From Acidobacteriota bacterium (GTDB lineage Bacteria; Acidobacteriota; Terriglobia; Versatilivoradales; Versatilivoraceae), in NCBI GenBank assembly GCA_028875135.1, contig JAPPFQ010000149.1, positions 1-36,111 on the forward strand: a stretch of 36,111 nucleotides of DNA, in the 5' to 3' direction. This document shows positions 3,042 to 36,111 of this stretch, piece after piece; position 1 is the stretch's first letter; each line of letters begins with the position of its first letter. The notes beneath the pieces are model-generated. The model saw only the letters and a program-made list of their open reading frames with translations. It was not told where the DNA came from and did no database searches. The position numbers and the translations under genes are program-made.

Positions 3042-3379
3042 GTGTACGTCTTATGTCTCCACTGCCCTGCTGCGCTTCTCTCCCGGTGACTGCTGGGCCT
3101 CCAGCCTTCCCAAGTCGCTTCACTGCCCCATCCTTCACTCGGGCCTTTGGTTGCCTCCAGTCGCTCGCCTGGCGCTTGGTCCGCTGGGCCGGCGCAATCC
3201 AGCCGCCAGAACGCTTACGCTCGCCCAACGGGCGTCTGTCAACGTGGCTTGCCCATGCCGGCCTGGCGCGGCCCTCGACTGGGCTCCGCTTCGTCCTCCC
3301 GCTCGGGTTTGGCCGGTGCCGCCAGTCCTGGGTGAGCGGCACACGCTCACAAACCCTTAACGCTTAGGAGGAACAACCA

Positions 3380-3655
3380 ATGGCAAACCAAAGACCCATC
3401 GAGACCGTTCGGATCGGATCCGTCAAGGCCGCGATTTGGGGAATTCAGGCTGGCGAGCGCACGCGCTACAACGTCACCTTCTCGAAGCGCTACCGCGACG
3501 CGCAAGGGCAGTGGAAGACGACGCACAGCTTCGGCCGCAACGACCTGCTGGTTCTCGCCAAGGTCGCCGATCAAGCCCACTCCCAGATTCTCGTTCTCGA
3601 AGCGGAGCAGGCCGAAGACACCAACGGCCAGGATGACGACGATGAGCCGCCATAG
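3380..3655 (+). CDS. Small PC4/YdbC-like ssDNA-binding protein candidate with an SSB-like acidic tail (function speculative)
   Basis: The SD is strong (TTAGGAGGAACAACCAATG); 91 aa. The beta-rich core IETVRIGSVKAAIWGIQAGERTRYNVTFSKRYRDAQGQWKTTHSFGRNDLLVL resembles the PC4-like pattern. The C-terminus is QDDDDEPP. Confidence 0.6.
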   Translation: MANQRPIETVRIGSVKAAIWGIQAGERTRYNVTFSKRYRDAQGQWKTTHSFGRNDLLVLAKVADQAHSQILVLEAEQAEDTNGQDDDDEPP

Positions 3656-3661
3656 CTCGGC

Positions 3662-3686
3662 GGGCGGCGGGTCACTCCCGCCGCCC
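3662..3686 (+). terminator. Perfect 10-bp GC hairpin downstream of 3380..3655
   Basis: GGGCGGCGGG-TCACT-CCCGCCGCCC starts 7 nt after the stop and is followed by TTCCCTTCCC (no clean U-tract). Confidence 0.5.
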
Positions 3687-3733
3687 TTCCCTTCCCGGCT
3701 CGCTTGACCTATTATCTACCTGGAGACACTGAA

Positions 3734-4063
3734 ATGACCGACTTTGAAACCGCCACCTTGACCGCCCAATACGCCACCGCCATCGCCCAGGTCCTGATCG
3801 GGCTCGGCCAGATCGCCGTGGTCTGGTACGGCATCAACCGCATGGTGTCAGCTAACGATGCCCGTGCCCTGGCTGGCGACCGGCAGGAGCGGGAAAGCGA
3901 ACGCCGCCACGCCGAAAGCATGGCCGCCCTGCAAGGGCTGATCCGAGGCCTGGATAACCAGGGCGAGGCGTTGAAGAATCAGGGCCAGGCCTTGAGCCGG
4001 CAGGGCCTGGCGCTCGAAACCCTGATCGCCCGGACCGGCGGCAGCGGGACCGCGACCGCGTGA
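3734..4063 (+). CDS. Small membrane-anchored coiled-coil protein (N-terminal TM)
   Basis: ATG preceded by GGAGA; 109 aa. The hydrophobic segment AIAQVLIGLGQIAVVWYGI is followed by the heptad-like repeats NQGEALK NQGQALS RQGLALE. The ORF-track TTG start at 3704 lacks an SD and was rejected. Confidence 0.6.
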   Translation: MTDFETATLTAQYATAIAQVLIGLGQIAVVWYGINRMVSANDARALAGDRQERESERRHAESMAALQGLIRGLDNQGEALKNQGQALSRQGLALETLIARTGGSGTATA

Positions 4064-4169
4064 CGGTCCCTCCTGGATTCCGGACGTCGCGTTTGTGACG
4101 TCCGGATTTCCTTCGACACACCGAGCCACTTTCTCCCGCGATACGGGATACCTTCCCTCCACTCAACTT

Positions 4170-4203
4170 CCACAGGCGGCGGGGCTTCGCCCCTGAGAGA
4201 GAG
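4170..4203 (+). repeat. Intergenic hairpin repeat, forward copy (CCACAGGCGGC-GGGGC-TTC-GCCCC-TGAGAGAGAG)
   Basis: Member of a six-locus family (4170, 5936 rev, 13395, 17949 rev, 21637, 23087). It lies 3' of the gene 3734..4063. Confidence 0.7.
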
Positions 4204-4350
4204 CAGATCGGGAGGGGAAAGAGTCCGTAGGATGCCCTGTGAGCGACTTTCTCAGGCTCCGACGACCTGTAGCACTCGGGAAATCGAGCCGGCCACGGCG
4301 GGAGCTAGCCGCCGCGAGGCACAAGATGTTGTGGTCGAGGATTCAGCCGG

Positions 4351-4599
4351 CTAGAGTAGCTTCGTCAAGCCTACAATCAAGGCGACAATGCCGGCCCCCT
4401 GAATCCACAAGGCCCGGAAGACTTCAGCCTTGAGGTCGGCGATGTCGGTCTTGACTTCTGCGATGTCGGTCTTGGTAGCGACCGTATCGGTGAAGGCCTC
4501 GGCCAGGGTGTCCACCACCGCGTCGGCCTGACCTTCCGCGAATCCGGCTGCCTGGAGGGTGCGGACAGCCTTGCGAGTGTCAAACGTGATAGTAGCCAT
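4351..4599 (-). CDS. DUF1640-like coiled-coil protein with a C-terminal TM
   Basis: 82 aa from the ATG preceded by GGAAGGAAG. MATITFDTRKAVRTLQAAGFAEGQADAVVDTL...ATKTDIAEVKTDIADLKAEV is followed by a hydrophobic tail. Paralogues lie at 5617..5904 and 13487..13792. Confidence 0.75.
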   Translation of the reverse strand: MATITFDTRKAVRTLQAAGFAEGQADAVVDTLAEAFTDTVATKTDIAEVKTDIADLKAEVFRALWIQGAGIVALIVGLTKLL

Positions 4600-4677
4600 G
4601 AGCTTCTTCCTTCCCCAAAGTCTACCACACCTTCCCACCTAAACCAGACGTAATTACGCAGGCACGAAATAATGTGG

Positions 4678-4705
4678 TTGCGTAGACGCGCATCTGTGGT
4701 ATTGT
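4678..4705 (+). promoter_or_regulatory. Candidate sigma70-type promoter for parA (TTGCGT-16 nt-TATTGT); would give a near-leaderless mRNA
   Basis: The -10 element ends 9 nt before the parA ATG and no SD precedes that ATG. The perfect palindrome CGTAATTACG lies at 4649-4658 just upstream. Confidence 0.3.
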
Positions 4706-4714
4706 GTTTTAACG

Positions 4715-5329
4715 ATGCGCACGATTGTCATTGCAGCTCGCAAAGGCGGAGCCGGCAAAACCACCCTTACCCGCAACCTGGCGGTTGCCGCATGCGAGGC
4801 CGGCCAGCGGGTGCTGTGCCTCGATCTCGATCCCCAGGCCTCGCTTCGTGGTTGGTGGGACAGACGGGAAGTGGAGTCCCCCTCGATGCTTGACCGTGAC
4901 CCCCAGCCAGCCGAGATACAGGCCGCCCTGGAGGCCGTGGCCGAGGCCTTCGACCTGTGTCTGATCGACACCCCGCCCACTAGGGCCGAATGGCTGAACG
5001 AGGCGCTGGTGAACGCGGACCTGGTATTGATTCCGGTACGGCCGTCTCCGGACGACCTGAGCGCCGTTGGCAACACACTCGCCGGCGTGAGCCGAGCGAG
5101 GATACCGTTTGCCTTCGTCCTGTCGCAGACACCCCGCGCCAGGATCACCGACGAAGCAGCTCGCGTCCTGGCGCAGCACGGCCGAGTGGCCCCGGTCAAC
5201 ATCAGCCATCGCGTCGTCTATGCTGAGACCGGGGCGACCGGCGAGGGAGTCACGGAAACCGGGAACAAGAAAGCCGCCGCAGAATTTGTGGCCTTGTGGG
5301 ATTACCTGAAAGGAATGCTCGATGGCTAA
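4715..5329 (+). CDS. parA: ParA/Soj-family partition ATPase
   Basis: 204 aa with the deviant Walker A KGGAGKTT near the N-terminus (MRTIVIAARKGGAGKTTLTRNLA) and LDLDPQ. Confidence 0.9.
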   Translation: MRTIVIAARKGGAGKTTLTRNLAVAACEAGQRVLCLDLDPQASLRGWWDRREVESPSMLDRDPQPAEIQAALEAVAEAFDLCLIDTPPTRAEWLNEALVNADLVLIPVRPSPDDLSAVGNTLAGVSRARIPFAFVLSQTPRARITDEAARVLAQHGRVAPVNISHRVVYAETGATGEGVTETGNKKAAAEFVALWDYLKGMLDG

Positions 5330-5564
5330 AAAACCCCTAGGGCTCGATGGATTGCTGAAAGGCGATGCGCCCCAACAGGAATCCGCTCCACGTCAAGCCC
5401 CATCGACTCCCGTGCAAAAGCAACCTGGTGAGAAGCGTGTAACCGTTGCCCTGGATGGAGCGACCTATCGCCGCCTGCGGCTGTACGCCGCCAACACGGA
5501 CTTGACCCACCAGACAATTCTTGAACGCGCACTTGCACAGTATCTGAATAACGCAAATGCGTAA
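5322..5564 (+). CDS. Ribbon-helix-helix protein, probable ParG-like centromere-binding partner
   Basis: 80 aa, overlapping the parA stop (ATGGCTAA). It has a disordered N-terminus and then the RHH-like KRVTVALDGATYRRLRLYAANTDLTHQTILERALAQYL. Confidence 0.55.
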   Translation: MAKKPLGLDGLLKGDAPQQESAPRQAPSTPVQKQPGEKRVTVALDGATYRRLRLYAANTDLTHQTILERALAQYLNNANA

Positions 5565-5616
5565 TTGCGCGAACGAGGCCGGGTGACGCTCACGAACATC
5601 TACCGCTGCGCCAATA

Positions 5617-5904
5617 TCAAAAGAAGGCGATCTTGAGAAGCAGGAGGATAATGGCCGGGCCGAAGAAGTACTTGACGATCTTGAGATCCGCTTTCACCCC
5701 TGCAATTTCAGCCTTCAGATCGGCGATGTCGGTCTTGACTTCTGCGATGTCGATCTTGACTTCTGCGATGTCGGTCTTGGTAGCGACCGTATCGGTGAAG
5801 GCCTCGGCCACGGACTGCACGATGGCTTCGGCGTGCGCCTCCTCGATGCCGGCGGCCTTGAGTTTGCGGCTGGCTTTCAGGGTGTCGAATACGGCGGTGG
5901 TCAT
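5617..5904 (-). CDS. DUF1640-like coiled-coil protein with a C-terminal TM
   Basis: 95 aa from MTTAVFDTLKASRKLKAAGIEEAHAEAIV... It contains three 21-bp (7-aa) tandem units, TDIAEVK/IDIAEVK/TDIADLK, and shares a tract of about 69 nt identical with 4437-4505. Confidence 0.75.
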   Translation of the reverse strand: MTTAVFDTLKASRKLKAAGIEEAHAEAIVQSVAEAFTDTVATKTDIAEVKIDIAEVKTDIADLKAEIAGVKADLKIVKYFFGPAIILLLLKIAFF

Positions 5905-5935
5905 GCCCTTACTCCCATGGCAAGAGTTTAGCACA

Positions 5936-5967
5936 CTCTCTCAGAGGCGCACCCCCCCCGCCTGTGG
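5936..5967 (-). repeat. Intergenic hairpin repeat, reverse-orientation copy
   Basis: CTCTCTCAGAGGCGCACCCCCCCCGCCTGTGG is a degenerate reverse complement of the 4170-type motif. It lies 3' of the minus-strand gene 6005..6898. Confidence 0.6.
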
Positions 5968-6004
5968 CGCAGGCCGCCCTGACTTTCCCGGTGCTGCAGG
6001 TCGT

Positions 6005-6898
6005 CTATTTCTCCTGGACTTGGACCTGCTCCAGCTTCTTCTTTGCTTGGGCAAGGGCGGGCCGTATATTGTTTTCTTGGATCTCTATGCTTCTCCGCAC
6101 TAAATTGAGCCCACCGAGATCCGTGGCTCGCTGCAGTTTCGGCCGTAGCGGCAGTATATTTTGCCGGCGGGCGAGGCGGGCCATGGTAACCCGATCCCCG
6201 GCCCATCGCTTCTCCCAGTAGTCGGTTTGCGCTGCCTGCACCTCTGTCAGGACCTCGATCAACTCCTCATGCATCCTGTCCAACTTTTCGATTCGCGCCG
6301 AGTAGGTCTTGCGTAATTCCTCCAGATCGGGCGGCGGCGGGGCTGGCTTGGCAGCAACCTTTTTCGGCGTAGAGACAGGAAGTCCTCTTGGTTTTGAAGC
6401 CAATCTATTCCGAGACTTCGAAGTTGATCGTGTCTTTCTTCTCGCCGCCGCCCGCTGGTGCGCTTCCTTGGCCTGCTGGACTGTTTTCTTGGCCCGCTCC
6501 GGCAAGTCTTCGGCGGAGGTGTAGAATCTTTCGGCGATAGAGCGCACACCCCTTATACTCTGCGCCAAACGAGGCAGCTCCAGATCTGTGTACTCCTTGA
6601 CATCCGTGCGTAAGGCCGCAATCTCATTCGACAGCTTCTTTTTCTTTTCCTCGTAGTCACTACGGGTAATCACGCCAGTCGAGAAAAAACCCTTGAGCTC
6701 GACTTCTGACCCTTCATAGATTTCCATGGCGGTCTTAGTCGCAGCGAGATGCTTCTCATAGACTTCTTCAACCTCGTCGAGGATCCCCAAGAGGGCTTCC
6801 CGGGTCTCGTCGGACTGTCTCTGCTCGGCACTCCGGCAGCCCAGCGACAACAGCACGACGGAGGCCAGCACGATTCCTGTGGTGAGTCGAGGGGTCAT
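6005..6898 (-). CDS. Coiled-coil, Lys/Arg-rich probable lipoprotein
   Basis: 297 aa from the ATG preceded by AGGAGAG. The ATG overlaps the recombinase stop (ATGA). The signal/lipobox-like N-terminus is MTPRLTTGIVLASVVLLSLGC, with a long helical E/K-rich body and a basic PKKVAAKPAPPPP linker. Confidence 0.6.
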   Translation of the reverse strand: MTPRLTTGIVLASVVLLSLGCRSAEQRQSDETREALLGILDEVEEVYEKHLAATKTAMEIYEGSEVELKGFFSTGVITRSDYEEKKKKLSNEIAALRTDVKEYTDLELPRLAQSIRGVRSIAERFYTSAEDLPERAKKTVQQAKEAHQRAAARRKTRSTSKSRNRLASKPRGLPVSTPKKVAAKPAPPPPDLEELRKTYSARIEKLDRMHEELIEVLTEVQAAQTDYWEKRWAGDRVTMARLARRQNILPLRPKLQRATDLGGLNLVRRSIEIQENNIRPALAQAKKKLEQVQVQEK

Positions 6899-7536
6899 TT
6901 CTTCTCTCCTTTGCCTTTGCCGATTGTGAACCGAGGCTTGTTTGGTCCTGTGCCGAAATTCTCTGCCTTTCCCAAGGGAAACCACCTGTAGAGCGTGTTC
7001 GTGCTGACCCCAAAATGTCGGGCGATGCTGGCCCGACTCATCTCTGGGTTATTTAGCAGCGTCATGGCTGTTTCGACAACCTGCCGGTCATGGAAGATGC
7101 TGGGTCGGCCCCAAGCCATGTCTTGCTCTTTCCGCTGAGAGGCGGCAAGCAAGGTACGCTCCGATATAAGTGAGCGTTCGAATTCCGCCAACGCTGCGAT
7201 GATCGCAAAGAACAGTTTTCCCATGGCTGTGCGAGTGTCGATCTGCTCGGTCAGGGACTGCAACTGAATTTTGCGCTCCTTGAGTGAACCGAGGATAGTG
7301 AGCAGGTGCTGGAGCGAGCGTCCCAGCCTGTCGAAGCGCCAGACTACCAGCGTGTCGCCGGTCGTCAATGTCGCCAGTGCTCGGTTCAGAGCGGGCCTCG
7401 CATGACGCGCCCCGGTCACATGATCAACGAAGATCTCGGCACATCCGGACGATTTCAGGACTTGAATCTGATGATCCGGATTCTGCTCCAATTTCGATAC
7501 ACGGGCATAACCGATACGCTGGGCTTTGTCCCTTAT
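6895..7536 (-). CDS. Small serine recombinase (resolvase/invertase family) with a C-terminal HTH
   Basis: IGYARVSKLEQNPDHQ (catalytic Ser motif), GDTLVVWRFDRLGRS, AEFERSLISERT and the C-terminal HTH SIARHFGVSTNTLYRW are present. The catalytic motif lies upstream of the first ATG/GTG/TTG (TTG at 7491). The start is placed at an in-frame ATA (7536) 5 nt after AGGAGG, and an in-frame TAA lies at 7563. Confidence 0.8.
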   Translation of the reverse strand: MRDKAQRIGYARVSKLEQNPDHQIQVLKSSGCAEIFVDHVTGARHARPALNRALATLTTGDTLVVWRFDRLGRSLQHLLTILGSLKERKIQLQSLTEQIDTRTAMGKLFFAIIAALAEFERSLISERTLLAASQRKEQDMAWGRPSIFHDRQVVETAMTLLNNPEMSRASIARHFGVSTNTLYRWFPLGKAENFGTGPNKPRFTIGKGKGEKK

Positions 7537-7640
7537 TTTGACCTCCTGATACAGCTCTAATTAGCTCTTGACGATTGGTTATGTATTTTCGTTACCTTCC
7601 GAGAGCCTGGACAAGGTGGTTTTATCACACAAAAAGCAGT

Positions 7641-7666
7641 GTGTCGAAATCGTTCGATTTGGTGAC
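7641..7666 (+). promoter_or_regulatory. hix-like 26-bp recombinase site, left (GTGTCGAAATCG-TT-CGATTTGGTGAC)
   Basis: 12-2-12 imperfect dyad. Bases 7645-7667 are a perfect 23-bp inverted repeat of 8012-8034. Confidence 0.55.
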
Positions 7667-8012
7667 GGAATCCGAACTGTAACACCGATATTTATTACCC
7701 AACAAGCAAAATGCGAAAAAAAACAATGCGGGAGGAGTAAGGCGATTGCGTCCCGGATGTCCCTACCAGAGGGAGTTCCGCCTGGCCTGGGCTCACCTGT
7801 CTCCTGAGGGTCCTCGGAGAGGCTCAGAAGCCCCCCCTTTCACCCCTCTTTTGCGAACTCTGGTGAAAAATGCGGGCTAGGAGTCCCCGGCCTAGAGCTG
7901 CTGTCCCCAGAGGCCGCCGCTCGGTTTCCTAGCTGCAACCTCCCTCTCCGAGCAGGTCTATCAGTATTCCCTTCAGGTATTTAGCAGATATTTTCGTTCC
8001 CTCCCAATCGAC

Positions 8013-8038
8013 GTCACCAAATCGAACGATTTCGTATC
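8013..8038 (-). promoter_or_regulatory. hix-like 26-bp recombinase site, right (inverted orientation)
   Basis: GTCACCAAATCG-AA-CGATTTCGTATC. It is the reverse complement of the left site except for the outer 3 nt and ends 30 nt before the virB2 ATG. Confidence 0.55.
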
Positions 8039-8068
8039 TGATCCCCACTATTGGCAGGAGGGCAGAGG

Positions 8069-8371
8069 ATGAAGAACACCAACTCTATCACCTGGAAGCA
8101 TCTTGTCCTGCTGGCGGTCTTTCTGGCGCTTTCAGCCGGAGAACTCCTGGCCCAGGGAACACCGCCGGCCAGTCCCTGGGAAAACGCCATCCAGGTACTG
8201 GAGACGGCCTTTACCGGCCCTATCGCTCGCGGTTTATCGCTGATTGCCATTGTTGTTGGCGGCTTGATGTTTGCCTTTGGAGAAGGCGGATCGAAGAAGG
8301 CGCTGGCCGGTATCGTCTTTGGCCTTGGCATGGCTATGGGTGCAGCGAACTTCCTGGGCTGGCTGTTCTAG
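8069..8371 (+). CDS. virB2: VirB2/TrbC-family T4SS pilin
   Basis: 100 aa from the ATG preceded by GGAGGG. It has a signal-like N-terminus (LVLLAVFLALSAGELLAQG) and two hydrophobic helices, and is the first gene of the T4SS cluster. Confidence 0.7.
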   Translation: MKNTNSITWKHLVLLAVFLALSAGELLAQGTPPASPWENAIQVLETAFTGPIARGLSLIAIVVGGLMFAFGEGGSKKALAGIVFGLGMAMGAANFLGWLF

Positions 8372-8378
8372 GTATTAC

Positions 8379-8675
8379 ATGCACGATCTGAAAATCTGGC
8401 GGGGGCATGCGACGCTGAGTGCGCCCTTGAAAATGATGGGCGTCGAGCGGCGCTGGTTTCTTCTCTCCGTAACGGTCGCCCTGGCGCTATGGAACGCGGT
8501 CAACTCCCTCCTGCTCGGAGGCATGATCTTTGGCGTTCTCTACACCGCCGGACTGCTGGCTTGGCGGAAAGATCCGGCCATGCTGTCCATTCTCAAAGTC
8601 TCGGCGAGCTGCCGCGCCCGATACGATCCGGGCAAGTGGAGCCCCTCTCCTTTTGTTGTGGTGATCCGCGAATGA
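8379..8675 (+). CDS. virB3: VirB3/TrbD-like T4SS inner-membrane protein
   Basis: 98 aa with LSAPLKMMGVERRWFLLSVTVALALW plus a second TM. It sits between the pilin gene and virB4, and its stop overlaps the virB4 start (ATGA). Confidence 0.65.
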   Translation: MHDLKIWRGHATLSAPLKMMGVERRWFLLSVTVALALWNAVNSLLLGGMIFGVLYTAGLLAWRKDPAMLSILKVSASCRARYDPGKWSPSPFVVVIRE

Positions 8676-11092
8676 ACCTTGCAGAAGAAGCCAAGGATTT
8701 CGAGGCGGCCGGGGCGCTGGCCGACGAGCTCCCCTATTGGGGCTGGCTCCCCGATGGCGAGTGCCTGCTTGGCCGCAACGGAAACCTCATAGCCATTGGC
8801 CAACTCTCTCCGACTCCTGTCGACGGCCGCGAGGCGGTTCACCTGGACCGCGTCATAGACCGCTGGCAACGCGCCCTGTCCAACCTTGACCACAAGATGC
8901 GGCTCTATTTCTACTTTCTCCGTCGGCCGCCGGAGATCCCCCAGCCGGTCAGCAACGCCAGCGAGGTGGTCCGCCTGTCCCAGCAGCGCCGGGCCGAGTT
9001 CCTGGCCGGCCGCGTTTCAGACGTTTCCGTCTTCGTCGCCTGGTGCTATGACTCGGGCCTTCAAGCAGCCAGCTCCGAGGTAGACAGCGGAGTGATCCCC
9101 TGGATGCGTCAGTGGATCACCCAACGCAAGAAGCCCAATGAGGCTGTCTATCTCCGTCGAGCTGTCGAAGCAGCGGCTGAGCAGTTTCGCCAGGCGGTCG
9201 CCGCCAGCCGGGCACTGGTCTCCGACATTACCCCCATCGACCTGCTGGGCCCCAAACAGGGCTCACGCTTTCTCTCCGAGCTGGTGAACCGTCCCGGAAC
9301 ACCCTGGAGCGGCGCCACAGACGCGGGTCTCAACTGGCAACTCGCCGTGTCCGAGCTGGAGGCCGAGCGGCGCTTTCTCCGCCTCGACGGTGTTCCCGCC
9401 GTGGTCTATTCCATGCTGTCCCCGCCCGGAGAGGCCAGGGCCAACCTCCTGGCCGATCTTTTTCGTCTGGACGCTACTTCGACTGTAAGCCTGGAGTGGA
9501 AGCGATGGGGGCTTGACGCCGCCCGGCGAAAGATCCGTAGCGCCCAAAAACACTACTTCTCAAAGCGCTATTCCATGGCCGCCCACATGCAGGACACCCA
9601 GGGAACGGCCGCCGCTATGACCGACACCGCCGCCGAGGCCGCCTCCAGCCGGCTGGGCTCCGCGCTTGTCGAGCTGGAGGCCGATGGTGTCTCCTACGGT
9701 TCCATCACCTGCACCGTTACCCTCCATGGCGACCATGAGCAGATCGACCACCTGGACGGCGAGGTCCGGAGGATCTTCAACACCTACGACGCCAAGGTGA
9801 TCCGGGAAGGATACGGCCAGCTTCCGGCCTGGTTCTGCCGGCTGCCCGGGCAGCCGCCCAGCCGCAACGTCCGCAGCGTTTTTGCATCCGCTGGCCTCTG
9901 CGCCTGTCTGGCCCCCCTCTTTGGGGCCTCCACAGGCAGACCCACCAGCAAACACTTGGGCCGGCCCGCCCTTGCCGTCCTGGAAACCCGGAACAAGACC
10001 CCCTACCACTATGACCTGTTCGCCGGCGACGTGGGCCACACCCTCATTCTCGGAGCGACCGGCGCGGGCAAGAGCTTCACTCTCAACTTCCTGTTGGTCT
10101 CAGCCCTTCAGTACGATCCCCGAGTTCTAATCCTCGATCTGGGCGGCTCCTACCGCTGGCTCACGTCCTTTCTGGGCGGTTCCTACCTGGAGCTTTCCCC
10201 TTCCGAGGAGGGAAGCGCCACTTTCAAGCTACGGCCGTTTTCCCTGCCGGCGACCGAGCGTACCTACCAATTCCTGGCCGGCTGGGTCGCGCGCCTGTTG
10301 AGGATCGGCGGCGGGGATCTCGCCGGAGCCGACACCACCGAGATTCACGACCGCATCGTGGATCTCTACAAACTCCCTCCGAACCACCGGACCCTGGGCG
10401 ACTTGGTCCGCACCCTGCCTCAAAAGATGTGGCCCCCGCTGTCCCGGTGGCACGGCTCGGGGGCCTGGGGCGCGGTCTTTGACAACCCGGCCACCGGCGA
10501 CGACCTGAAACTGGCCGACTGGCAAGTGATCGACCTGGCCGGCGCGGCCGAGCACGAGGACTTGTGCGAGGCCGCCCTTTTCTATCTGCTGGAGCGCTTG
10601 CGGCTCGCCCTGGAAGACCCGGACGAGACCGCCCGCGTCAAGCTCATGGTTGTGGACGAGGCCTGGCGCTATCTCCGCGACCCCGCCGTCCTGTCCTACC
10701 TGGCGGAAGCCGCCAAGACCTGGAGAAAGAAAAACGCCGCGCTGATCCTGGCCACGCAGTCCGCCGTTGACCTTACAGGCACCGCCGGTGCCGCCGCGCT
10801 GCTTGAGTCTCTCCCGACCAAGCTGTTTCTCGCCAATCCCGACCTGCCGTCCTCGGTCGCCGAAGTGTTCCACTTGAACGACCACGAGGTTGAGGCCATC
10901 CGAAGCCTCCTGCCCAAGCGGGAAATGTACCTGCGCCGCTCCGACGAGTTCGCCATTCTTCGGCTTAACGTGGACAGACAAGGCTACTGGCTCTACACGT
11001 CTTCCGCTGTGGACGCCGAGAAGCGGTCCCAGGCCGTTGAGCAGCACGGCCTGGTGCGCGGCATCGAACACCTTGCAAAGGGGGTCCAATGA
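8672..11092 (+). CDS. virB4: VirB4/TrbE-family T4SS ATPase
   Basis: 806 aa from the ATGA-coupled start, with Walker A LILGATGAGKSF and Walker B-like KLMVVDEAWRYL. Confidence 0.9.
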   Translation: MNLAEEAKDFEAAGALADELPYWGWLPDGECLLGRNGNLIAIGQLSPTPVDGREAVHLDRVIDRWQRALSNLDHKMRLYFYFLRRPPEIPQPVSNASEVVRLSQQRRAEFLAGRVSDVSVFVAWCYDSGLQAASSEVDSGVIPWMRQWITQRKKPNEAVYLRRAVEAAAEQFRQAVAASRALVSDITPIDLLGPKQGSRFLSELVNRPGTPWSGATDAGLNWQLAVSELEAERRFLRLDGVPAVVYSMLSPPGEARANLLADLFRLDATSTVSLEWKRWGLDAARRKIRSAQKHYFSKRYSMAAHMQDTQGTAAAMTDTAAEAASSRLGSALVELEADGVSYGSITCTVTLHGDHEQIDHLDGEVRRIFNTYDAKVIREGYGQLPAWFCRLPGQPPSRNVRSVFASAGLCACLAPLFGASTGRPTSKHLGRPALAVLETRNKTPYHYDLFAGDVGHTLILGATGAGKSFTLNFLLVSALQYDPRVLILDLGGSYRWLTSFLGGSYLELSPSEEGSATFKLRPFSLPATERTYQFLAGWVARLLRIGGGDLAGADTTEIHDRIVDLYKLPPNHRTLGDLVRTLPQKMWPPLSRWHGSGAWGAVFDNPATGDDLKLADWQVIDLAGAAEHEDLCEAALFYLLERLRLALEDPDETARVKLMVVDEAWRYLRDPAVLSYLAEAAKTWRKKNAALILATQSAVDLTGTAGAAALLESLPTKLFLANPDLPSSVAEVFHLNDHEVEAIRSLLPKREMYLRRSDEFAILRLNVDRQGYWLYTSSAVDAEKRSQAVEQHGLVRGIEHLAKGVQ

Positions 11093-29657: not shown

Positions 29658-29763
29658 CGGTCCCTCCTGGATTCCGGACGTCGCGTTTGTGACGTCCGGA
29701 TTTCCTTCGACACACCGAGCCACTTTCTCCCGCGATACGGGATACCTTCCCTCCACTCAACTT

Positions 29764-29797
29764 CCACAGGCGGCGGGGCTTCGCCCCTGAGAGAGAG
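29764..29797 (+). repeat. Intergenic hairpin repeat (copy 2 of 4170..4203)
   Basis: Identical at offset 25,594. Confidence 0.7.
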
Positions 29798-29944
29798 CAG
29801 ATCGGGAGGGGAAAGAGTCCGTAGGATGCCCTGTGAGCGACTTTCTCAGGCTCCGACGACCTGTAGCACTCGGGAAATCGAGCCGGCCACGGCGGGAGCT
29901 AGCCGCCGCGAGGCACAAGATGTTGTGGTCGAGGATTCAGCCGG

Positions 29945-30193
29945 CTAGAGTAGCTTCGTCAAGCCTACAATCAAGGCGACAATGCCGGCCCCCTGAATCC
30001 ACAAGGCCCGGAAGACTTCAGCCTTGAGGTCGGCGATGTCGGTCTTGACTTCTGCGATGTCGGTCTTGGTAGCGACCGTATCGGTGAAGGCCTCGGCCAG
30101 GGTGTCCACCACCGCGTCGGCCTGACCTTCCGCGAATCCGGCTGCCTGGAGGGTGCGGACAGCCTTGCGAGTGTCAAACGTGATAGTAGCCAT
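29945..30193 (-). CDS. DUF1640-like protein (copy 2)
   Basis: Identical to 4351..4599. Confidence 0.75.
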   Translation of the reverse strand: MATITFDTRKAVRTLQAAGFAEGQADAVVDTLAEAFTDTVATKTDIAEVKTDIADLKAEVFRALWIQGAGIVALIVGLTKLL

Positions 30194-30308
30194 GAGCTTC
30201 TTCCTTCCCCAAAGTCTACCACACCTTCCCACCTAAACCAGACGTAATTACGCAGGCACGAAATAATGTGGTTGCGTAGACGCGCATCTGTGGTATTGTG
30301 TTTTAACG

Positions 30309-30923
30309 ATGCGCACGATTGTCATTGCAGCTCGCAAAGGCGGAGCCGGCAAAACCACCCTTACCCGCAACCTGGCGGTTGCCGCATGCGAGGCCGGCCA
30401 GCGGGTGCTGTGCCTCGATCTCGATCCCCAGGCCTCGCTTCGTGGTTGGTGGGACAGACGGGAAGTGGAGTCCCCCTCGATGCTTGACCGTGACCCCCAG
30501 CCAGCCGAGATACAGGCCGCCCTGGAGGCCGTGGCCGAGGCCTTCGACCTGTGTCTGATCGACACCCCGCCCACTAGGGCCGAATGGCTGAACGAGGCGC
30601 TGGTGAACGCGGACCTGGTATTGATTCCGGTACGGCCGTCTCCGGACGACCTGAGCGCCGTTGGCAACACACTCGCCGGCGTGAGCCGAGCGAGGATACC
30701 GTTTGCCTTCGTCCTGTCGCAGACACCCCGCGCCAGGATCACCGACGAAGCAGCTCGCGTCCTGGCGCAGCACGGCCGAGTGGCCCCGGTCAACATCAGC
30801 CATCGCGTCGTCTATGCTGAGACCGGGGCGACCGGCGAGGGAGTCACGGAAACCGGGAACAAGAAAGCCGCCGCAGAATTTGTGGCCTTGTGGGATTACC
30901 TGAAAGGAATGCTCGATGGCTAA
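30309..30923 (+). CDS. parA: ParA/Soj-family partition ATPase (copy 2)
   Basis: Identical to 4715..5329. Confidence 0.9.
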   Translation: MRTIVIAARKGGAGKTTLTRNLAVAACEAGQRVLCLDLDPQASLRGWWDRREVESPSMLDRDPQPAEIQAALEAVAEAFDLCLIDTPPTRAEWLNEALVNADLVLIPVRPSPDDLSAVGNTLAGVSRARIPFAFVLSQTPRARITDEAARVLAQHGRVAPVNISHRVVYAETGATGEGVTETGNKKAAAEFVALWDYLKGMLDG

Positions 30924-31158
30924 AAAACCCCTAGGGCTCGATGGATTGCTGAAAGGCGATGCGCCCCAACAGGAATCCGCTCCACGTCAAGCCCCATCGA
31001 CTCCCGTGCAAAAGCAACCTGGTGAGAAGCGTGTAACCGTTGCCCTGGATGGAGCGACCTATCGCCGCCTGCGGCTGTACGCCGCCAACACGGACTTGAC
31101 CCACCAGACAATTCTTGAACGCGCACTTGCACAGTATCTGAATAACGCAAATGCGTAA
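30916..31158 (+). CDS. RHH ParG-like protein (copy 2)
   Basis: Identical to 5322..5564. Confidence 0.55.
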   Translation: MAKKPLGLDGLLKGDAPQQESAPRQAPSTPVQKQPGEKRVTVALDGATYRRLRLYAANTDLTHQTILERALAQYLNNANA

Positions 31159-31210
31159 TTGCGCGAACGAGGCCGGGTGACGCTCACGAACATCTACCGC
31201 TGCGCCAATA

Positions 31211-31498
31211 TCAAAAGAAGGCGATCTTGAGAAGCAGGAGGATAATGGCCGGGCCGAAGAAGTACTTGACGATCTTGAGATCCGCTTTCACCCCTGCAAT
31301 TTCAGCCTTCAGATCGGCGATGTCGGTCTTGACTTCTGCGATGTCGATCTTGACTTCTGCGATGTCGGTCTTGGTAGCGACCGTATCGGTGAAGGCCTCG
31401 GCCACGGACTGCACGATGGCTTCGGCGTGCGCCTCCTCGATGCCGGCGGCCTTGAGTTTGCGGCTGGCTTTCAGGGTGTCGAATACGGCGGTGGTCAT
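31211..31498 (-). CDS. DUF1640-like protein (copy 2)
   Basis: Identical to 5617..5904. Confidence 0.75.
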   Translation of the reverse strand: MTTAVFDTLKASRKLKAAGIEEAHAEAIVQSVAEAFTDTVATKTDIAEVKIDIAEVKTDIADLKAEIAGVKADLKIVKYFFGPAIILLLLKIAFF

Positions 31499-31529
31499 GC
31501 CCTTACTCCCATGGCAAGAGTTTAGCACA

Positions 31530-31561
31530 CTCTCTCAGAGGCGCACCCCCCCCGCCTGTGG
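31530..31561 (-). repeat. Intergenic hairpin repeat, reverse copy (copy 2 of 5936..5967)
   Basis: Identical at offset 25,594. Confidence 0.6.
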
Positions 31562-31598
31562 CGCAGGCCGCCCTGACTTTCCCGGTGCTGCAGGTCGT

Positions 31599-32492
31599 CT
31601 ATTTCTCCTGGACTTGGACCTGCTCCAGCTTCTTCTTTGCTTGGGCAAGGGCGGGCCGTATATTGTTTTCTTGGATCTCTATGCTTCTCCGCACTAAATT
31701 GAGCCCACCGAGATCCGTGGCTCGCTGCAGTTTCGGCCGTAGCGGCAGTATATTTTGCCGGCGGGCGAGGCGGGCCATGGTAACCCGATCCCCGGCCCAT
31801 CGCTTCTCCCAGTAGTCGGTTTGCGCTGCCTGCACCTCTGTCAGGACCTCGATCAACTCCTCATGCATCCTGTCCAACTTTTCGATTCGCGCCGAGTAGG
31901 TCTTGCGTAATTCCTCCAGATCGGGCGGCGGCGGGGCTGGCTTGGCAGCAACCTTTTTCGGCGTAGAGACAGGAAGTCCTCTTGGTTTTGAAGCCAATCT
32001 ATTCCGAGACTTCGAAGTTGATCGTGTCTTTCTTCTCGCCGCCGCCCGCTGGTGCGCTTCCTTGGCCTGCTGGACTGTTTTCTTGGCCCGCTCCGGCAAG
32101 TCTTCGGCGGAGGTGTAGAATCTTTCGGCGATAGAGCGCACACCCCTTATACTCTGCGCCAAACGAGGCAGCTCCAGATCTGTGTACTCCTTGACATCCG
32201 TGCGTAAGGCCGCAATCTCATTCGACAGCTTCTTTTTCTTTTCCTCGTAGTCACTACGGGTAATCACGCCAGTCGAGAAAAAACCCTTGAGCTCGACTTC
32301 TGACCCTTCATAGATTTCCATGGCGGTCTTAGTCGCAGCGAGATGCTTCTCATAGACTTCTTCAACCTCGTCGAGGATCCCCAAGAGGGCTTCCCGGGTC
32401 TCGTCGGACTGTCTCTGCTCGGCACTCCGGCAGCCCAGCGACAACAGCACGACGGAGGCCAGCACGATTCCTGTGGTGAGTCGAGGGGTCAT
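31599..32492 (-). CDS. Coiled-coil probable lipoprotein (copy 2)
   Basis: Identical to 6005..6898. Confidence 0.6.
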   Translation of the reverse strand: MTPRLTTGIVLASVVLLSLGCRSAEQRQSDETREALLGILDEVEEVYEKHLAATKTAMEIYEGSEVELKGFFSTGVITRSDYEEKKKKLSNEIAALRTDVKEYTDLELPRLAQSIRGVRSIAERFYTSAEDLPERAKKTVQQAKEAHQRAAARRKTRSTSKSRNRLASKPRGLPVSTPKKVAAKPAPPPPDLEELRKTYSARIEKLDRMHEELIEVLTEVQAAQTDYWEKRWAGDRVTMARLARRQNILPLRPKLQRATDLGGLNLVRRSIEIQENNIRPALAQAKKKLEQVQVQEK

Positions 32493-33130
32493 TTCTTCTC
32501 TCCTTTGCCTTTGCCGATTGTGAACCGAGGCTTGTTTGGTCCTGTGCCGAAATTCTCTGCCTTTCCCAAGGGAAACCACCTGTAGAGCGTGTTCGTGCTG
32601 ACCCCAAAATGTCGGGCGATGCTGGCCCGACTCATCTCTGGGTTATTTAGCAGCGTCATGGCTGTTTCGACAACCTGCCGGTCATGGAAGATGCTGGGTC
32701 GGCCCCAAGCCATGTCTTGCTCTTTCCGCTGAGAGGCGGCAAGCAAGGTACGCTCCGATATAAGTGAGCGTTCGAATTCCGCCAACGCTGCGATGATCGC
32801 AAAGAACAGTTTTCCCATGGCTGTGCGAGTGTCGATCTGCTCGGTCAGGGACTGCAACTGAATTTTGCGCTCCTTGAGTGAACCGAGGATAGTGAGCAGG
32901 TGCTGGAGCGAGCGTCCCAGCCTGTCGAAGCGCCAGACTACCAGCGTGTCGCCGGTCGTCAATGTCGCCAGTGCTCGGTTCAGAGCGGGCCTCGCATGAC
33001 GCGCCCCGGTCACATGATCAACGAAGATCTCGGCACATCCGGACGATTTCAGGACTTGAATCTGATGATCCGGATTCTGCTCCAATTTCGATACACGGGC
33101 ATAACCGATACGCTGGGCTTTGTCCCTTAT
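32489..33130 (-). CDS. Small serine recombinase (copy 2)
   Basis: Identical to 6895..7536, including the non-canonical start context. Confidence 0.8.
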   Translation of the reverse strand: MRDKAQRIGYARVSKLEQNPDHQIQVLKSSGCAEIFVDHVTGARHARPALNRALATLTTGDTLVVWRFDRLGRSLQHLLTILGSLKERKIQLQSLTEQIDTRTAMGKLFFAIIAALAEFERSLISERTLLAASQRKEQDMAWGRPSIFHDRQVVETAMTLLNNPEMSRASIARHFGVSTNTLYRWFPLGKAENFGTGPNKPRFTIGKGKGEKK

Positions 33131-33234
33131 TTTGACCTCCTGATACAGCTCTAATTAGCTCTTGACGATTGGTTATGTATTTTCGTTACCTTCCGAGAGC
33201 CTGGACAAGGTGGTTTTATCACACAAAAAGCAGT

Positions 33235-33260
33235 GTGTCGAAATCGTTCGATTTGGTGAC
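33235..33260 (+). promoter_or_regulatory. hix-like site, left (copy 2)
   Basis: Identical to 7641..7666. Confidence 0.55.
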
Positions 33261-33606
33261 GGAATCCGAACTGTAACACCGATATTTATTACCCAACAAG
33301 CAAAATGCGAAAAAAAACAATGCGGGAGGAGTAAGGCGATTGCGTCCCGGATGTCCCTACCAGAGGGAGTTCCGCCTGGCCTGGGCTCACCTGTCTCCTG
33401 AGGGTCCTCGGAGAGGCTCAGAAGCCCCCCCTTTCACCCCTCTTTTGCGAACTCTGGTGAAAAATGCGGGCTAGGAGTCCCCGGCCTAGAGCTGCTGTCC
33501 CCAGAGGCCGCCGCTCGGTTTCCTAGCTGCAACCTCCCTCTCCGAGCAGGTCTATCAGTATTCCCTTCAGGTATTTAGCAGATATTTTCGTTCCCTCCCA
33601 ATCGAC

Positions 33607-33632
33607 GTCACCAAATCGAACGATTTCGTATC
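33607..33632 (-). promoter_or_regulatory. hix-like site, right (copy 2)
   Basis: Identical to 8013..8038. The bracketed segment has the same orientation as in copy 1. Confidence 0.55.
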
Positions 33633-33662
33633 TGATCCCCACTATTGGCAGGAGGGCAGAGG

Positions 33663-33965
33663 ATGAAGAACACCAACTCTATCACCTGGAAGCATCTTGT
33701 CCTGCTGGCGGTCTTTCTGGCGCTTTCAGCCGGAGAACTCCTGGCCCAGGGAACACCGCCGGCCAGTCCCTGGGAAAACGCCATCCAGGTACTGGAGACG
33801 GCCTTTACCGGCCCTATCGCTCGCGGTTTATCGCTGATTGCCATTGTTGTTGGCGGCTTGATGTTTGCCTTTGGAGAAGGCGGATCGAAGAAGGCGCTGG
33901 CCGGTATCGTCTTTGGCCTTGGCATGGCTATGGGTGCAGCGAACTTCCTGGGCTGGCTGTTCTAG
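33663..33965 (+). CDS. virB2: VirB2/TrbC-family pilin (copy 2)
   Basis: Identical to 8069..8371. Confidence 0.7.
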   Translation: MKNTNSITWKHLVLLAVFLALSAGELLAQGTPPASPWENAIQVLETAFTGPIARGLSLIAIVVGGLMFAFGEGGSKKALAGIVFGLGMAMGAANFLGWLF

Positions 33966-33972
33966 GTATTAC

Positions 33973-34269
33973 ATGCACGATCTGAAAATCTGGCGGGGGC
34001 ATGCGACGCTGAGTGCGCCCTTGAAAATGATGGGCGTCGAGCGGCGCTGGTTTCTTCTCTCCGTAACGGTCGCCCTGGCGCTATGGAACGCGGTCAACTC
34101 CCTCCTGCTCGGAGGCATGATCTTTGGCGTTCTCTACACCGCCGGACTGCTGGCTTGGCGGAAAGATCCGGCCATGCTGTCCATTCTCAAAGTCTCGGCG
34201 AGCTGCCGCGCCCGATACGATCCGGGCAAGTGGAGCCCCTCTCCTTTTGTTGTGGTGATCCGCGAATGA
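33973..34269 (+). CDS. virB3: VirB3-like protein (copy 2)
   Basis: Identical to 8379..8675. Confidence 0.65.
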   Translation: MHDLKIWRGHATLSAPLKMMGVERRWFLLSVTVALALWNAVNSLLLGGMIFGVLYTAGLLAWRKDPAMLSILKVSASCRARYDPGKWSPSPFVVVIRE

Positions 34270-36111
34270 ACCTTGCAGAAGAAGCCAAGGATTTCGAGGC
34301 GGCCGGGGCGCTGGCCGACGAGCTCCCCTATTGGGGCTGGCTCCCCGATGGCGAGTGCCTGCTTGGCCGCAACGGAAACCTCATAGCCATTGGCCAACTC
34401 TCTCCGACTCCTGTCGACGGCCGCGAGGCGGTTCACCTGGACCGCGTCATAGACCGCTGGCAACGCGCCCTGTCCAACCTTGACCACAAGATGCGGCTCT
34501 ATTTCTACTTTCTCCGTCGGCCGCCGGAGATCCCCCAGCCGGTCAGCAACGCCAGCGAGGTGGTCCGCCTGTCCCAGCAGCGCCGGGCCGAGTTCCTGGC
34601 CGGCCGCGTTTCAGACGTTTCCGTCTTCGTCGCCTGGTGCTATGACTCGGGCCTTCAAGCAGCCAGCTCCGAGGTAGACAGCGGAGTGATCCCCTGGATG
34701 CGTCAGTGGATCACCCAACGCAAGAAGCCCAATGAGGCTGTCTATCTCCGTCGAGCTGTCGAAGCAGCGGCTGAGCAGTTTCGCCAGGCGGTCGCCGCCA
34801 GCCGGGCACTGGTCTCCGACATTACCCCCATCGACCTGCTGGGCCCCAAACAGGGCTCACGCTTTCTCTCCGAGCTGGTGAACCGTCCCGGAACACCCTG
34901 GAGCGGCGCCACAGACGCGGGTCTCAACTGGCAACTCGCCGTGTCCGAGCTGGAGGCCGAGCGGCGCTTTCTCCGCCTCGACGGTGTTCCCGCCGTGGTC
35001 TATTCCATGCTGTCCCCGCCCGGAGAGGCCAGGGCCAACCTCCTGGCCGATCTTTTTCGTCTGGACGCTACTTCGACTGTAAGCCTGGAGTGGAAGCGAT
35101 GGGGGCTTGACGCCGCCCGGCGAAAGATCCGTAGCGCCCAAAAACACTACTTCTCAAAGCGCTATTCCATGGCCGCCCACATGCAGGACACCCAGGGAAC
35201 GGCCGCCGCTATGACCGACACCGCCGCCGAGGCCGCCTCCAGCCGGCTGGGCTCCGCGCTTGTCGAGCTGGAGGCCGATGGTGTCTCCTACGGTTCCATC
35301 ACCTGCACCGTTACCCTCCATGGCGACCATGAGCAGATCGACCACCTGGACGGCGAGGTCCGGAGGATCTTCAACACCTACGACGCCAAGGTGATCCGGG
35401 AAGGATACGGCCAGCTTCCGGCCTGGTTCTGCCGGCTGCCCGGGCAGCCGCCCAGCCGCAACGTCCGCAGCGTTTTTGCATCCGCTGGCCTCTGCGCCTG
35501 TCTGGCCCCCCTCTTTGGGGCCTCCACAGGCAGACCCACCAGCAAACACTTGGGCCGGCCCGCCCTTGCCGTCCTGGAAACCCGGAACAAGACCCCCTAC
35601 CACTATGACCTGTTCGCCGGCGACGTGGGCCACACCCTCATTCTCGGAGCGACCGGCGCGGGCAAGAGCTTCACTCTCAACTTCCTGTTGGTCTCAGCCC
35701 TTCAGTACGATCCCCGAGTTCTAATCCTCGATCTGGGCGGCTCCTACCGCTGGCTCACGTCCTTTCTGGGCGGTTCCTACCTGGAGCTTTCCCCTTCCGA
35801 GGAGGGAAGCGCCACTTTCAAGCTACGGCCGTTTTCCCTGCCGGCGACCGAGCGTACCTACCAATTCCTGGCCGGCTGGGTCGCGCGCCTGTTGAGGATC
35901 GGCGGCGGGGATCTCGCCGGAGCCGACACCACCGAGATTCACGACCGCATCGTGGATCTCTACAAACTCCCTCCGAACCACCGGACCCTGGGCGACTTGG
36001 TCCGCACCCTGCCTCAAAAGATGTGGCCCCCGCTGTCCCGGTGGCACGGCTCGGGGGCCTGGGGCGCGGTCTTTGACAACCCGGCCACCGGCGACGACCT
36101 GAAACTGGCCG
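34266..36111 (+). CDS. virB4: VirB4-family ATPase (copy 2, 3' end cut by the window)
   Basis: Identical to 8672..10517. The frame stays open to the window end. Confidence 0.9.
   Translation, partial: MNLAEEAKDFEAAGALADELPYWGWLPDGECLLGRNGNLIAIGQLSPTPVDGREAVHLDRVIDRWQRALSNLDHKMRLYFYFLRRPPEIPQPVSNASEVVRLSQQRRAEFLAGRVSDVSVFVAWCYDSGLQAASSEVDSGVIPWMRQWITQRKKPNEAVYLRRAVEAAAEQFRQAVAASRALVSDITPIDLLGPKQGSRFLSELVNRPGTPWSGATDAGLNWQLAVSELEAERRFLRLDGVPAVVYSMLSPPGEARANLLADLFRLDATSTVSLEWKRWGLDAARRKIRSAQKHYFSKRYSMAAHMQDTQGTAAAMTDTAAEAASSRLGSALVELEADGVSYGSITCTVTLHGDHEQIDHLDGEVRRIFNTYDAKVIREGYGQLPAWFCRLPGQPPSRNVRSVFASAGLCACLAPLFGASTGRPTSKHLGRPALAVLETRNKTPYHYDLFAGDVGHTLILGATGAGKSFTLNFLLVSALQYDPRVLILDLGGSYRWLTSFLGGSYLELSPSEEGSATFKLRPFSLPATERTYQFLAGWVARLLRIGGGDLAGADTTEIHDRIVDLYKLPPNHRTLGDLVRTLPQKMWPPLSRWHGSGAWGAVFDNPATGDDLKLA

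What the first reader, a model, noticed from the sequence alone, without database searches (positions are those of the whole stretch)
3163..36111. Apparently perfect direct repeat of at least 7.35 kb with a 25,594-bp period: tandem conjugative-plasmid units
Seen: 3163-10517 and 28757-36111 give identical translations in all six frames and identical spot-checked nucleotides. The repeat runs to the window end, so its true length is unknown. It covers the PC4-like gene, parA/RHH, two DUF1640 genes, the lipoprotein, the recombinase, the candidate switch, virB2, virB3 and most of virB4. The window is not a simple wrap of a 25.6-kb circle, because 1-3035 does not match 25595-28627. Inference: a cointegrate or heteromultimer of two related plasmids, or a tandem ICE-like array, whose heads were homogenised by recent recombination or gene conversion. 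The alternative is an assembly chimera of two strain variants. Each unit carries a resolvase-family recombinase and identical parA/RHH systems, so stable persistence as a tandem would itself be notable.
Basis: partly seen in the sequence, partly recalled or inferred. Interest (0 to 1): 0.7.

Follow-up and report, generated by a model that had tools for sequence, protein, structure and literature searches.

The report
Circular plasmid over-run plus chimeric join
The 7.35-kb perfect repeat is real in the sequence, but it most likely arose because a short-read assembler went more than once round a 25,594-bp circular conjugative plasmid after entering it from a related plasmid through a 179-bp identical stretch, so it is probably not a biological tandem.

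Summary
Positions 3163-10517 and 28757-36111 are identical (0 mismatches in 7,355 bp, period 25,594), and the window is a whole 36,111-bp contig, so the contig end cuts the repeat.

The headline interpretation, a stable tandem or cointegrate with homogenised heads, is not supported. Two independent assemblies of sister samples give the same element (B) as a 25,642-bp scaffold. That is exactly one 25,594-bp unit plus a 48-bp end overlap, and it spans the internal junction at 100% identity. The internal junction is therefore just the closure of a circular plasmid.

The left 3.16 kb (A) is the diverged tail of a related plasmid. It is 83-85% identical to 23721-26059 at a shifted offset and carries a different rep gene. 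An independent scaffold matches the window at 100% over 1-3341 and then continues into a different head (RHH plus a XamI-type restriction enzyme).

The window switches from A to B inside the only stretch identical in both, 3163-3341 (179 bp). Two other A-tail contigs stop exactly 55 nt into that stretch. Most likely the contig is a chimeric join followed by 1.29 laps round the circle. A real heteromultimer cannot be excluded without reads. Interest is low.

The parts
1..3162 (+). Tail of a related plasmid 'A'. Genes: ArdC/zincin C-terminus (3-776, cut by the contig start), relaxase-like gene (780-1769), 104-aa gene (1771-2085), RepA_C replication gene (2193-3041).
   Evidence: Pfam. It is 83-85% nt identical to B 23721-26059 at a shifted offset. 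It is 100% identical to the independent scaffold L002, and 99.6-99.8% to L015 and L016.
3163..3341 (.). Segment S, copy 1 (179 bp, intergenic). This is the only stretch identical in both A (L002) and B, and the window switches from the A haplotype to the B haplotype inside it.
   Evidence: The last A/B mismatches are at 3161 and 3162. The first window/L002 mismatch is at 3342. A-tail contigs L015 and L016 both end at 3217, which is 55 nt into S.
3163..28756 (+). One complete unit of plasmid B (25,594 bp).
   Evidence: Pfam. The unit equals the independent 25,642-bp scaffolds minus their 48-bp end overlap.
3163..10517 (+). Repeat copy 1 (first pass through the head of plasmid B).
   Evidence: Identical to 28757-36111.
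28757..36111 (+). Repeat copy 2 (second pass through the head of plasmid B). The contig end cuts it inside virB4.
   Evidence: L003 is 100% identical to 19966-36111 and crosses the junction at 28757.
28757..28935 (.). Segment S, copy 2. Together with the bases before it, this is the closure point of circular plasmid B (B tail to B head).
   Evidence: L003, L012/L099 and L013, from three samples, all cross it into the B head.
23721..26059 (+). The B-tail region homologous to the A tail at 83-85% nt: ArdC C-terminus, relaxase-like gene and a 104-aa gene.
   Evidence: blastn and tblastn of 1-3162 against the rest of the window.
26060..28560 (+). B-specific replication/cargo slot (PriCT_1 + HTH_38 protein, 26381-27430). 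It occupies the place that the RepA_C gene holds in A.
19966..20013 (.). The 48 bp present at both ends of the independent 25,642-bp scaffolds (their circular overlap).
   Evidence: L003 and L012 start at 19966 and L009 ends at 20013. The span 19966 to 28756 plus 3163 to 20013 totals 25,642 bp.

Best explanation
The contig is an assembly path, not a molecule. The community holds two related conjugative plasmids. Plasmid B is a 25,594-bp circle. Plasmid A has a tail 83-85% identical to B's, a different rep gene and a different head. The two share an exactly identical 179-bp intergenic stretch, S. That is longer than the assembler's probable k-mer (55) and longer than a 150-nt read. In the assembly graph S is therefore a node with two entries (A tail, B tail) and two exits (A head, B head).

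The path that became this contig entered S from the A tail and left by the B head, which is the chimeric join. It then ran once round the B cycle back to S, left by the B head again, and stopped 7.35 kb later. The 'direct repeat' is the same plasmid DNA written twice, and its period is the plasmid's circumference.

Shown: B exists as a separate circle; the A tail continues into a different head elsewhere; the switch lies in S; other assemblies break in S. Inferred: the source data are short reads assembled with metaSPAdes, and no read evidence supports the A-tail to B-head link or the second lap.
For: (1) Copies are identical and the repeat is cut by the contig end.

(2) Scaffolds ERZ23495471 scaffold_3232 and ERZ23495468 scaffold_3329 are both 25,642 bp. 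Each runs window 19966 to 28756, then 3163 to 20013, which is one 25,594-bp unit plus a 48-bp terminal overlap. They are 100% and 99.994% identical to the window and cross the internal junction.

(3) L002 comes from the same sample as scaffold_3232. It is 100% identical to the window over 1-3341 and then diverges into RHH plus a XamI-type endonuclease.

(4) The window's A-to-B switch falls within 3163-3341, the only stretch identical in A and B.

(5) A-tail contigs L015 (ENA) and L016 (NCBI MAG GCA_028874015.1) both stop at 3217, exactly 55 nt into S. Logan unitigs L004 and L100 stop 30 nt after the last A/B mismatch before the near-identical region. These are typical de Bruijn branch points.

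(6) Every contig that crosses S from the B tail enters the B head, and none enters the A head.

(7) The 'ROBB21-1' sample tag points to Robbins et al. 2021, which used Illumina 2x150 reads and metaSPAdes v3.9.0 (PMC8163846). Such data cannot phase a 25.6-kb period.

(8) Chimeric scaffolds and artificial concatenation of identical sequence are documented assembler errors (PMC7111523).
Against: No reads, coverage values or assembly graph were available, so the artefact is inferred from independent assemblies rather than demonstrated for this contig.

The source sample and assembler of the window are not known directly. The link to Robbins et al. rests on a sample tag and on the NCBI provenance of the proteins.

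S (179 bp) can be bridged by read pairs, so the assembler may have had some pair support for A tail to B head.

I cannot explain why the path stops at 10517/36111. I also cannot explain why both the window and L002 begin at the same base: the first 55 nt of the window are not identical to B.

Such an overshoot is not, as far as I know, usual SPAdes behaviour for a cycle, where I would expect a k-sized end overlap (my recollection, not checked here).
Confidence: 0.8

Rival explanations
1. A real heteromultimer. One circular molecule holds two plasmid units with identical heads and bodies but different tails (one with the A tail and RepA_C, one with the B tail and PriCT). It would form by homologous recombination between two variants, and the window reads across both junctions.
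For: The layout A tail, B unit, B head is what such a heterodimer would give. The two tails carry different replication genes, which could let both replicons coexist. A serine recombinase is present in the unit.
Against: The only independent contig that crosses S from the A tail goes to a non-B head. B is recovered as a monomer circle in two sister samples. If the data are short reads, as I infer, they cannot distinguish a heterodimer from two monomers, so the contig is no evidence for one. The resolvase-type recombinase in each unit might resolve such forms, but its role was not tested.
Confidence: 0.06
2. The A-tail to B-head join is real: a natural recombinant plasmid in part of the population, with module exchange at S. 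The second lap is still only the wrap of a circle.
For: A and B are mosaic. Identity is 83-85% in the tail, 100% in S, about 93% in the next gene, and nil after that. This pattern suggests past recombination around S. Read pairs can bridge 179 bp, so the assembler may have had support.
Against: No independent contig shows this join. Two assemblies break in S and one resolves it to the A head. No reciprocal product, B tail to A head, was found.
Confidence: 0.11
3. A tandem array of an integrated conjugative element in a chromosome, with 1-3162 as chromosomal flank.
For: Relatives of this T4SS lie inside multi-megabase Acidobacteriota contigs, often in several copies.
Against: The left flank is homologous to the element's own tail (ArdC, relaxase-like gene) and carries a plasmid RepA_C gene. 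There is no tRNA. No tyrosine or large serine integrase was found, only a resolvase-size recombinase of about 160-200 aa. The unit has ParA, primase and rep-like genes and closes as a circle in independent assemblies.
Confidence: 0.01

Closest known systems
Terminal direct repeat of a circular genome in a linear contig (wrap-around), and artificial concatenation by assemblers (Chen et al. 2020, PMC7111523)
   Same: The repeat is exact and reaches the contig end. Its period equals the circumference of the independently assembled circle. Reads shorter than the period cannot support the second copy.
   Different: The overlap is 7.35 kb rather than one k-mer. It is not present at both contig ends, because 3.16 kb of another plasmid precedes the first copy.
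Chimeric contig joined through a repeat shared by co-occurring strain or plasmid variants (Chen et al. 2020, PMC7111523)
   Same: Both parents exist separately in sister samples. The switch lies within a perfectly shared stretch longer than k. Other assemblies fragment at exactly that place.
   Different: Lack of read-pair support and a coverage step, the usual proofs, could not be tested here.
Plasmid multimers and cointegrates with their resolution systems (Tn3/RP4-ParA-type serine resolvases at res sites; ColE1 cer/XerCD) - from established knowledge, not tested here
   Same: Head-to-tail units of a plasmid that carries a serine recombinase of the resolvase/invertase family.
   Different: No molecule-level evidence exists for more than one unit. 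The junction lies more than 3.5 kb from the recombinase gene, not at an adjacent res-like site. The A head seen elsewhere differs from the B head.
Tandem arrays and hybrids of ICEs (the SXT/R391 tandem arrays that yield recombinant ICEs) - from memory
   Same: Two related conjugative elements lie head to tail, with recombination between them proposed.
   Different: There is no integrase, no att site, no tRNA and no chromosomal flank. The elements have plasmid replication and partition genes.
VirB-type conjugative plasmids
   Same: Unit B encodes VirB2, 3, 4, 6, 8, 9, 10 and 11 homologues, a coupling protein, ArdC, a primase and ParA.
   Different: Its VirB4 is only about 23-30% identical to the listed PLSDB matches. 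Close relatives (61-91%) are in Acidobacteriota and Gemmatimonadota MAGs, mostly within large contigs. No recognisable relaxase family was found; the only hit is a weak one to Replic_Relax.

Membership tests
Wrap-around of a circular replicon in a linear contig | An exact direct repeat that reaches the contig end | tested here: met
   0 mismatches in 7,355 nt. The window is the whole 36,111-bp contig and the second VirB4 is truncated by its end.
Wrap-around of a circular replicon in a linear contig | The period equals the length of the replicon assembled independently as a circle | tested here: met
   Two 25,642-bp scaffolds each equal 25,594 bp plus a 48-bp end overlap, and they are 100% and 99.994% identical across the junction.
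Wrap-around of a circular replicon in a linear contig | The repeat sits at both termini of the contig | tested here: not met
   Copy 1 starts at 3163, and 1-3162 is the tail of another plasmid. The contig is therefore a wrap plus a chimeric extension, not a pure wrap.
Chimeric assembly join at a shared repeat | Both parental sequences exist separately | tested here: met
   A: L002, L015, L016. B: scaffold_3232, scaffold_3329, L013.
Chimeric assembly join at a shared repeat | The switch lies inside a stretch identical in both parents and longer than the k-mer | tested here: met
   S is 3163-3341, 179 bp. Contigs L015 and L016 end 55 nt into S.
Chimeric assembly join at a shared repeat | No read-pair support, or a coverage step, at the join | not testable with these tools
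   No reads, coverage or assembly graph are available.
Plasmid cointegrate / heteromultimer | Single molecules spanning more than one unit | not testable with these tools
   This needs long reads or physical sizing. The probable source data are 2x150 Illumina reads (the link to the study is inferred).
Plasmid cointegrate / heteromultimer | Reciprocal junction of an A x B crossover at S (B tail to A head) | tested here: not met
   The window has the B head after the second S. All six contigs carrying the last B-tail gene either enter the B head or stop before or within S.
Tandem ICE array | An integrase with att sites and a chromosomal flank | tested here: not met
   There is no tRNA and only a resolvase-size serine recombinase. 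The left flank is homologous to the element's own tail and encodes RepA_C.
VirB-type (MPF-T-like) conjugative plasmid (unit B) | A VirB2/3/4/6/8/9/10/11 set plus a coupling protein | tested here: met
   Pfam hits to TrbC/VirB2, VirB3, the VirB4 P-loop, CagX, TrbI, TrbL, VirB8, T2SSE and TraG-D_C/TrwB.
VirB-type (MPF-T-like) conjugative plasmid (unit B) | A recognisable relaxase | tested here: inconclusive
   The product of 24623-25657 gives only a sub-threshold Replic_Relax hit (E = 9e-4) and nothing in NCBIfam.

The most novel reading that the evidence does not exclude
The contig reflects a real molecule: a heterodimer of two variants of an Acidobacteriota-type conjugative plasmid. The two would share identical heads and carry different replication modules (RepA_C and PriCT), and would persist although each unit encodes a resolvase-family recombinase and the same ParA system.
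Probability: 0.05. Interest if true: 0.45.

Novelty: not a real feature. Interest (0 to 1): 0.1.

Why it matters
As a biological claim it matters little. The evidence points to an assembly path that wrote one circular plasmid 1.29 times and prefixed it with a piece of a related plasmid.

It matters practically in three ways:
- The deposited contig overstates the size of the replicon and duplicates about twelve genes.
- It falsely links a RepA_C replicon to plasmid B.
- It could be mistaken for a tandem array or a dual-replicon plasmid in surveys of mobile elements.

The useful by-product is a clean 25,594-bp circular conjugative plasmid. By its relatives it probably comes from a sponge-associated Acidobacteriota host. 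It belongs to a T4SS family that is very distant from catalogued plasmids.

Tried and rejected
- **PLSDB DNA search, left flank:** only short matches within ArdC, mostly 65-76% identical, and no close plasmid.
- **Exact 80-nt piece of S:** 0 hits in JGI metagenome contigs and 0 in IMG/VR, so the source is not there.
- **Paper search for sample and run accessions:** nothing found. The study was reached only through the 'ROBB21-1' tag and the BioProject number I recalled.
- **Look-up of the 867-aa VirB4 ORF:** nothing on record, because the called gene is 806 aa. The window's own contig is not shown by the look-up tool.
- **Truncated VirB4 relatives on 29-56-kb contigs, checked as possible further over-runs:** P0128 is not on record. 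P0124 lies on an unrelated long-read contig carrying a degraded relative.
- **Window start as an A/B shared 55-mer:** it is not; only 14 nt are shared. The contig ends remain unexplained.
- **tRNA or att-site reading of the partial similarity at 2960-3162:** rejected. There is no tRNA, and the similarity includes the homologous 3' ends of the two preceding ORFs, both ending ...TACGCCTGA in the alignment.
- **Comparative support for an invertible switch upstream of virB2:** none. The region is not conserved in relatives, and all independent contigs share one orientation.


Full report
**Observation.** A base-by-base comparison at an offset of 25,594 shows that 3163-10517 and 28757-36111 are identical: 7,355 nt with 0 mismatches. 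The last mismatches before the perfect stretch are at 3161 and 3162. Leftward, similarity decays gradually, to about 76% over 2960-3162. The window has no N and no tRNA. It is a complete contig. The second VirB4 copy, cut at 615 aa, is on record with a longest contig of 36,111 bp, and its sources are NCBI and NCBI nr. The contig end therefore truncates the repeat.

**What the unit is.** Positions 3163-28756 (25,594 bp, about 64% G+C) encode the following, in order (Pfam; NCBIfam):
- ParA, with an 80-aa gene downstream
- three small DUF1640/CCDC90-like genes
- a resolvase/invertase-family serine recombinase
- VirB2, VirB3, VirB4, VirB9 (CagX), VirB10 (TrbI), a weak TrbJ-like gene, VirB6 (TrbL) and VirB8
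- a coupling protein and VirB11
- a RepB-type primase and ArdC
- a 344-aa protein with only a weak Replic_Relax hit
- a PriCT_1/HTH_38 protein

This is a small VirB-type conjugative plasmid.

**The left flank is related, not foreign.** blastn and tblastn of 1-3162 against the rest of the window show 1-429 at 85% to 23721-24146 and 951-2171 at 83% to 24839-26059, that is, at a shifted offset. These regions hold the ArdC C-terminus, the relaxase-like gene and a 104-aa gene. Between them and the repeat, A carries a RepA_C gene (2193-3041), whereas B carries about 2.5 kb with the PriCT/HTH gene. The flank is the tail of a second, related plasmid (A) with a different replication module.

**Independent assemblies.** Exact-protein look-ups returned contigs from sister samples tagged ROBB21-1 (SAMN13943213, -14 and -15; runs SRR10996925-27).
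- Two scaffolds, ERZ23495471 scaffold_3232 and ERZ23495468 scaffold_3329, are each 25,642 bp. Mapped on the window, they run 19966 to 28756, then 3163 to 20013. That is exactly one 25,594-bp unit plus a 48-bp terminal overlap.
- Both are 100% and 99.994% identical to the window, including across the internal junction at 28757.
- A third sample gives a 6.3-kb scaffold (L013) that crosses the same junction.

B is therefore a 25,594-bp circle, and the internal junction is its closure.

**The A side.** Scaffold L002 (4,896 bp) comes from the same sample as scaffold_3232 and starts at the same base as the window.
- It is 100% identical to the window over 1-3341.
- It then diverges, at about 93% to 3690 and unrelated beyond.
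- Its continuation encodes a homologue of the 91-aa gene (about 81% aa), an RHH protein and a XamI-family restriction endonuclease.

In that assembly the A tail therefore runs into a different head, so the heads are not homogenised.

**The switch point.** Combining the two comparisons, 3163-3341 (179 bp, intergenic; 'S') is the only stretch identical in both A and B, and the window changes from the A haplotype to the B haplotype within it.
- Two further A-tail contigs both terminate at 3217, exactly 55 nt into S. They are L015 and L016, the latter from NCBI MAG GCA_028874015.1.
- Logan unitigs of the B tail (L004 and L100) terminate 30 nt after the last A/B mismatch before the near-identical region.

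These are the marks of a branch node in de Bruijn graphs, k = 55 being the default maximum in metaSPAdes and k = 31 the value used by Logan, both as I recall. Every contig that crosses S from the B tail enters the B head, and none enters the A head.

**Interpretation.** Each base of the window is reproduced at 99.98-100% identity by independent contigs. The only adjacency without independent support is A tail to B head, made across a 179-bp perfect repeat.
- A simple A x B cointegrate is excluded by the window itself, because the second S is followed by the B head, not the A head.
- What remains is either a path artefact or a more elaborate real molecule. The artefact would be a chimeric entry into the B cycle, one full lap and part of a second. 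The real molecule would be an A-tailed unit fused to a B unit with identical heads.
- The sample tag and NCBI provenance point to Robbins et al. 2021, which used Illumina 2x150 reads and metaSPAdes v3.9.0 (PMC8163846). This link is my inference.
- With such data nothing can phase a 25.6-kb period, so the second copy carries no information about molecules.
- Chimeric scaffolds and artificial concatenation of identical sequence are recognised assembler errors, and repeats that read pairs cannot span are exactly what curators are told to check (PMC7111523).

I put the artefact at about 0.8. A real recombinant join with an artefactual wrap gets about 0.1, a real heteromultimer about 0.06, and a tandem ICE array about 0.01.

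**Unresolved.** I cannot say why the path stops at 10517/36111. I also cannot say why two assemblies start the A tail at the same base; the first 55 nt are not shared with B. I have no reads, depth or graph.

**Context.** VirB4 relatives at 89-91% occur in an Acidobacteria MAG and a 'Ca. Versatilivorator vitaminiformans' MAG whose sources I did not check. Relatives at 61-69% are common, and often multi-copy, in large contigs and chromosomes of Acidobacteriota (Terriglobia, Bryobacterales, Vicinamibacterales) and Longimicrobiales MAGs. The listed PLSDB VirB4 matches are only about 23-30% identical, and no PLSDB plasmid is close at the DNA level. The plasmid itself is thus a new member of a poorly catalogued family, but that is separate from the finding under review.

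**Verdict.** The repeat is real in the file and almost certainly not real in the cell. The window should be read as 3.16 kb of plasmid A, plus plasmid B written 1.29 times.

Noticed in passing
window 7645-7667 and 8012-8034 (also 33239-33261 and 33606-33628): A perfect 23-nt inverted repeat (CGAAATCGTTCGATTTGGTGACG) brackets 344 nt directly upstream of virB2 (8051). It lies next to the serine recombinase gene (6895-7491, minus strand), whose NCBIfam hits include the Mpi invertase family. This is a candidate invertible promoter for the T4SS operon. All independent contigs have the same orientation, and the region is not conserved in relatives.
   Followed up: partly
window 2193-3041 versus 26381-27430: The two related plasmids carry non-homologous replication genes in the same slot, between the relaxase-like gene and S: RepA_C in A and PriCT_1/HTH_38 in B. 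This suggests module swapping that could make them compatible.
   Followed up: partly
window 4351-4638, 5617-5934 and 13487-13792 (all minus strand): Three paralogous small DUF1640/CCDC90-like coiled-coil genes lie in one 25.6-kb plasmid. 4429-4564 and 5734-5869 are 83% identical at the DNA level.
   Followed up: no
loci L020-L097 (for example CBDCKA010000002.1, CBDHFM01 contigs): This T4SS family (VirB4 at 61-69% aa) is widespread and often multi-copy in MAGs of Acidobacteriota and Longimicrobiales. One 3.0-Mb Terriglobia contig holds at least five copies among the listed loci. The closest PLSDB VirB4 is about 23-30% identical.
   Followed up: no
window 24623-25657 and 780-1769: The gene in the usual relaxase position (after ArdC) has no confident family assignment. 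Its only hit is a sub-threshold one to Replic_Relax, and NCBIfam gives nothing. It may be an undescribed relaxase type.
   Followed up: partly
L002 3981-4895: In plasmid A the head carries an RHH protein followed by a XamI-family restriction endonuclease (Pfam E = 2e-65). This is a restriction-type cargo absent from plasmid B.
   Followed up: no
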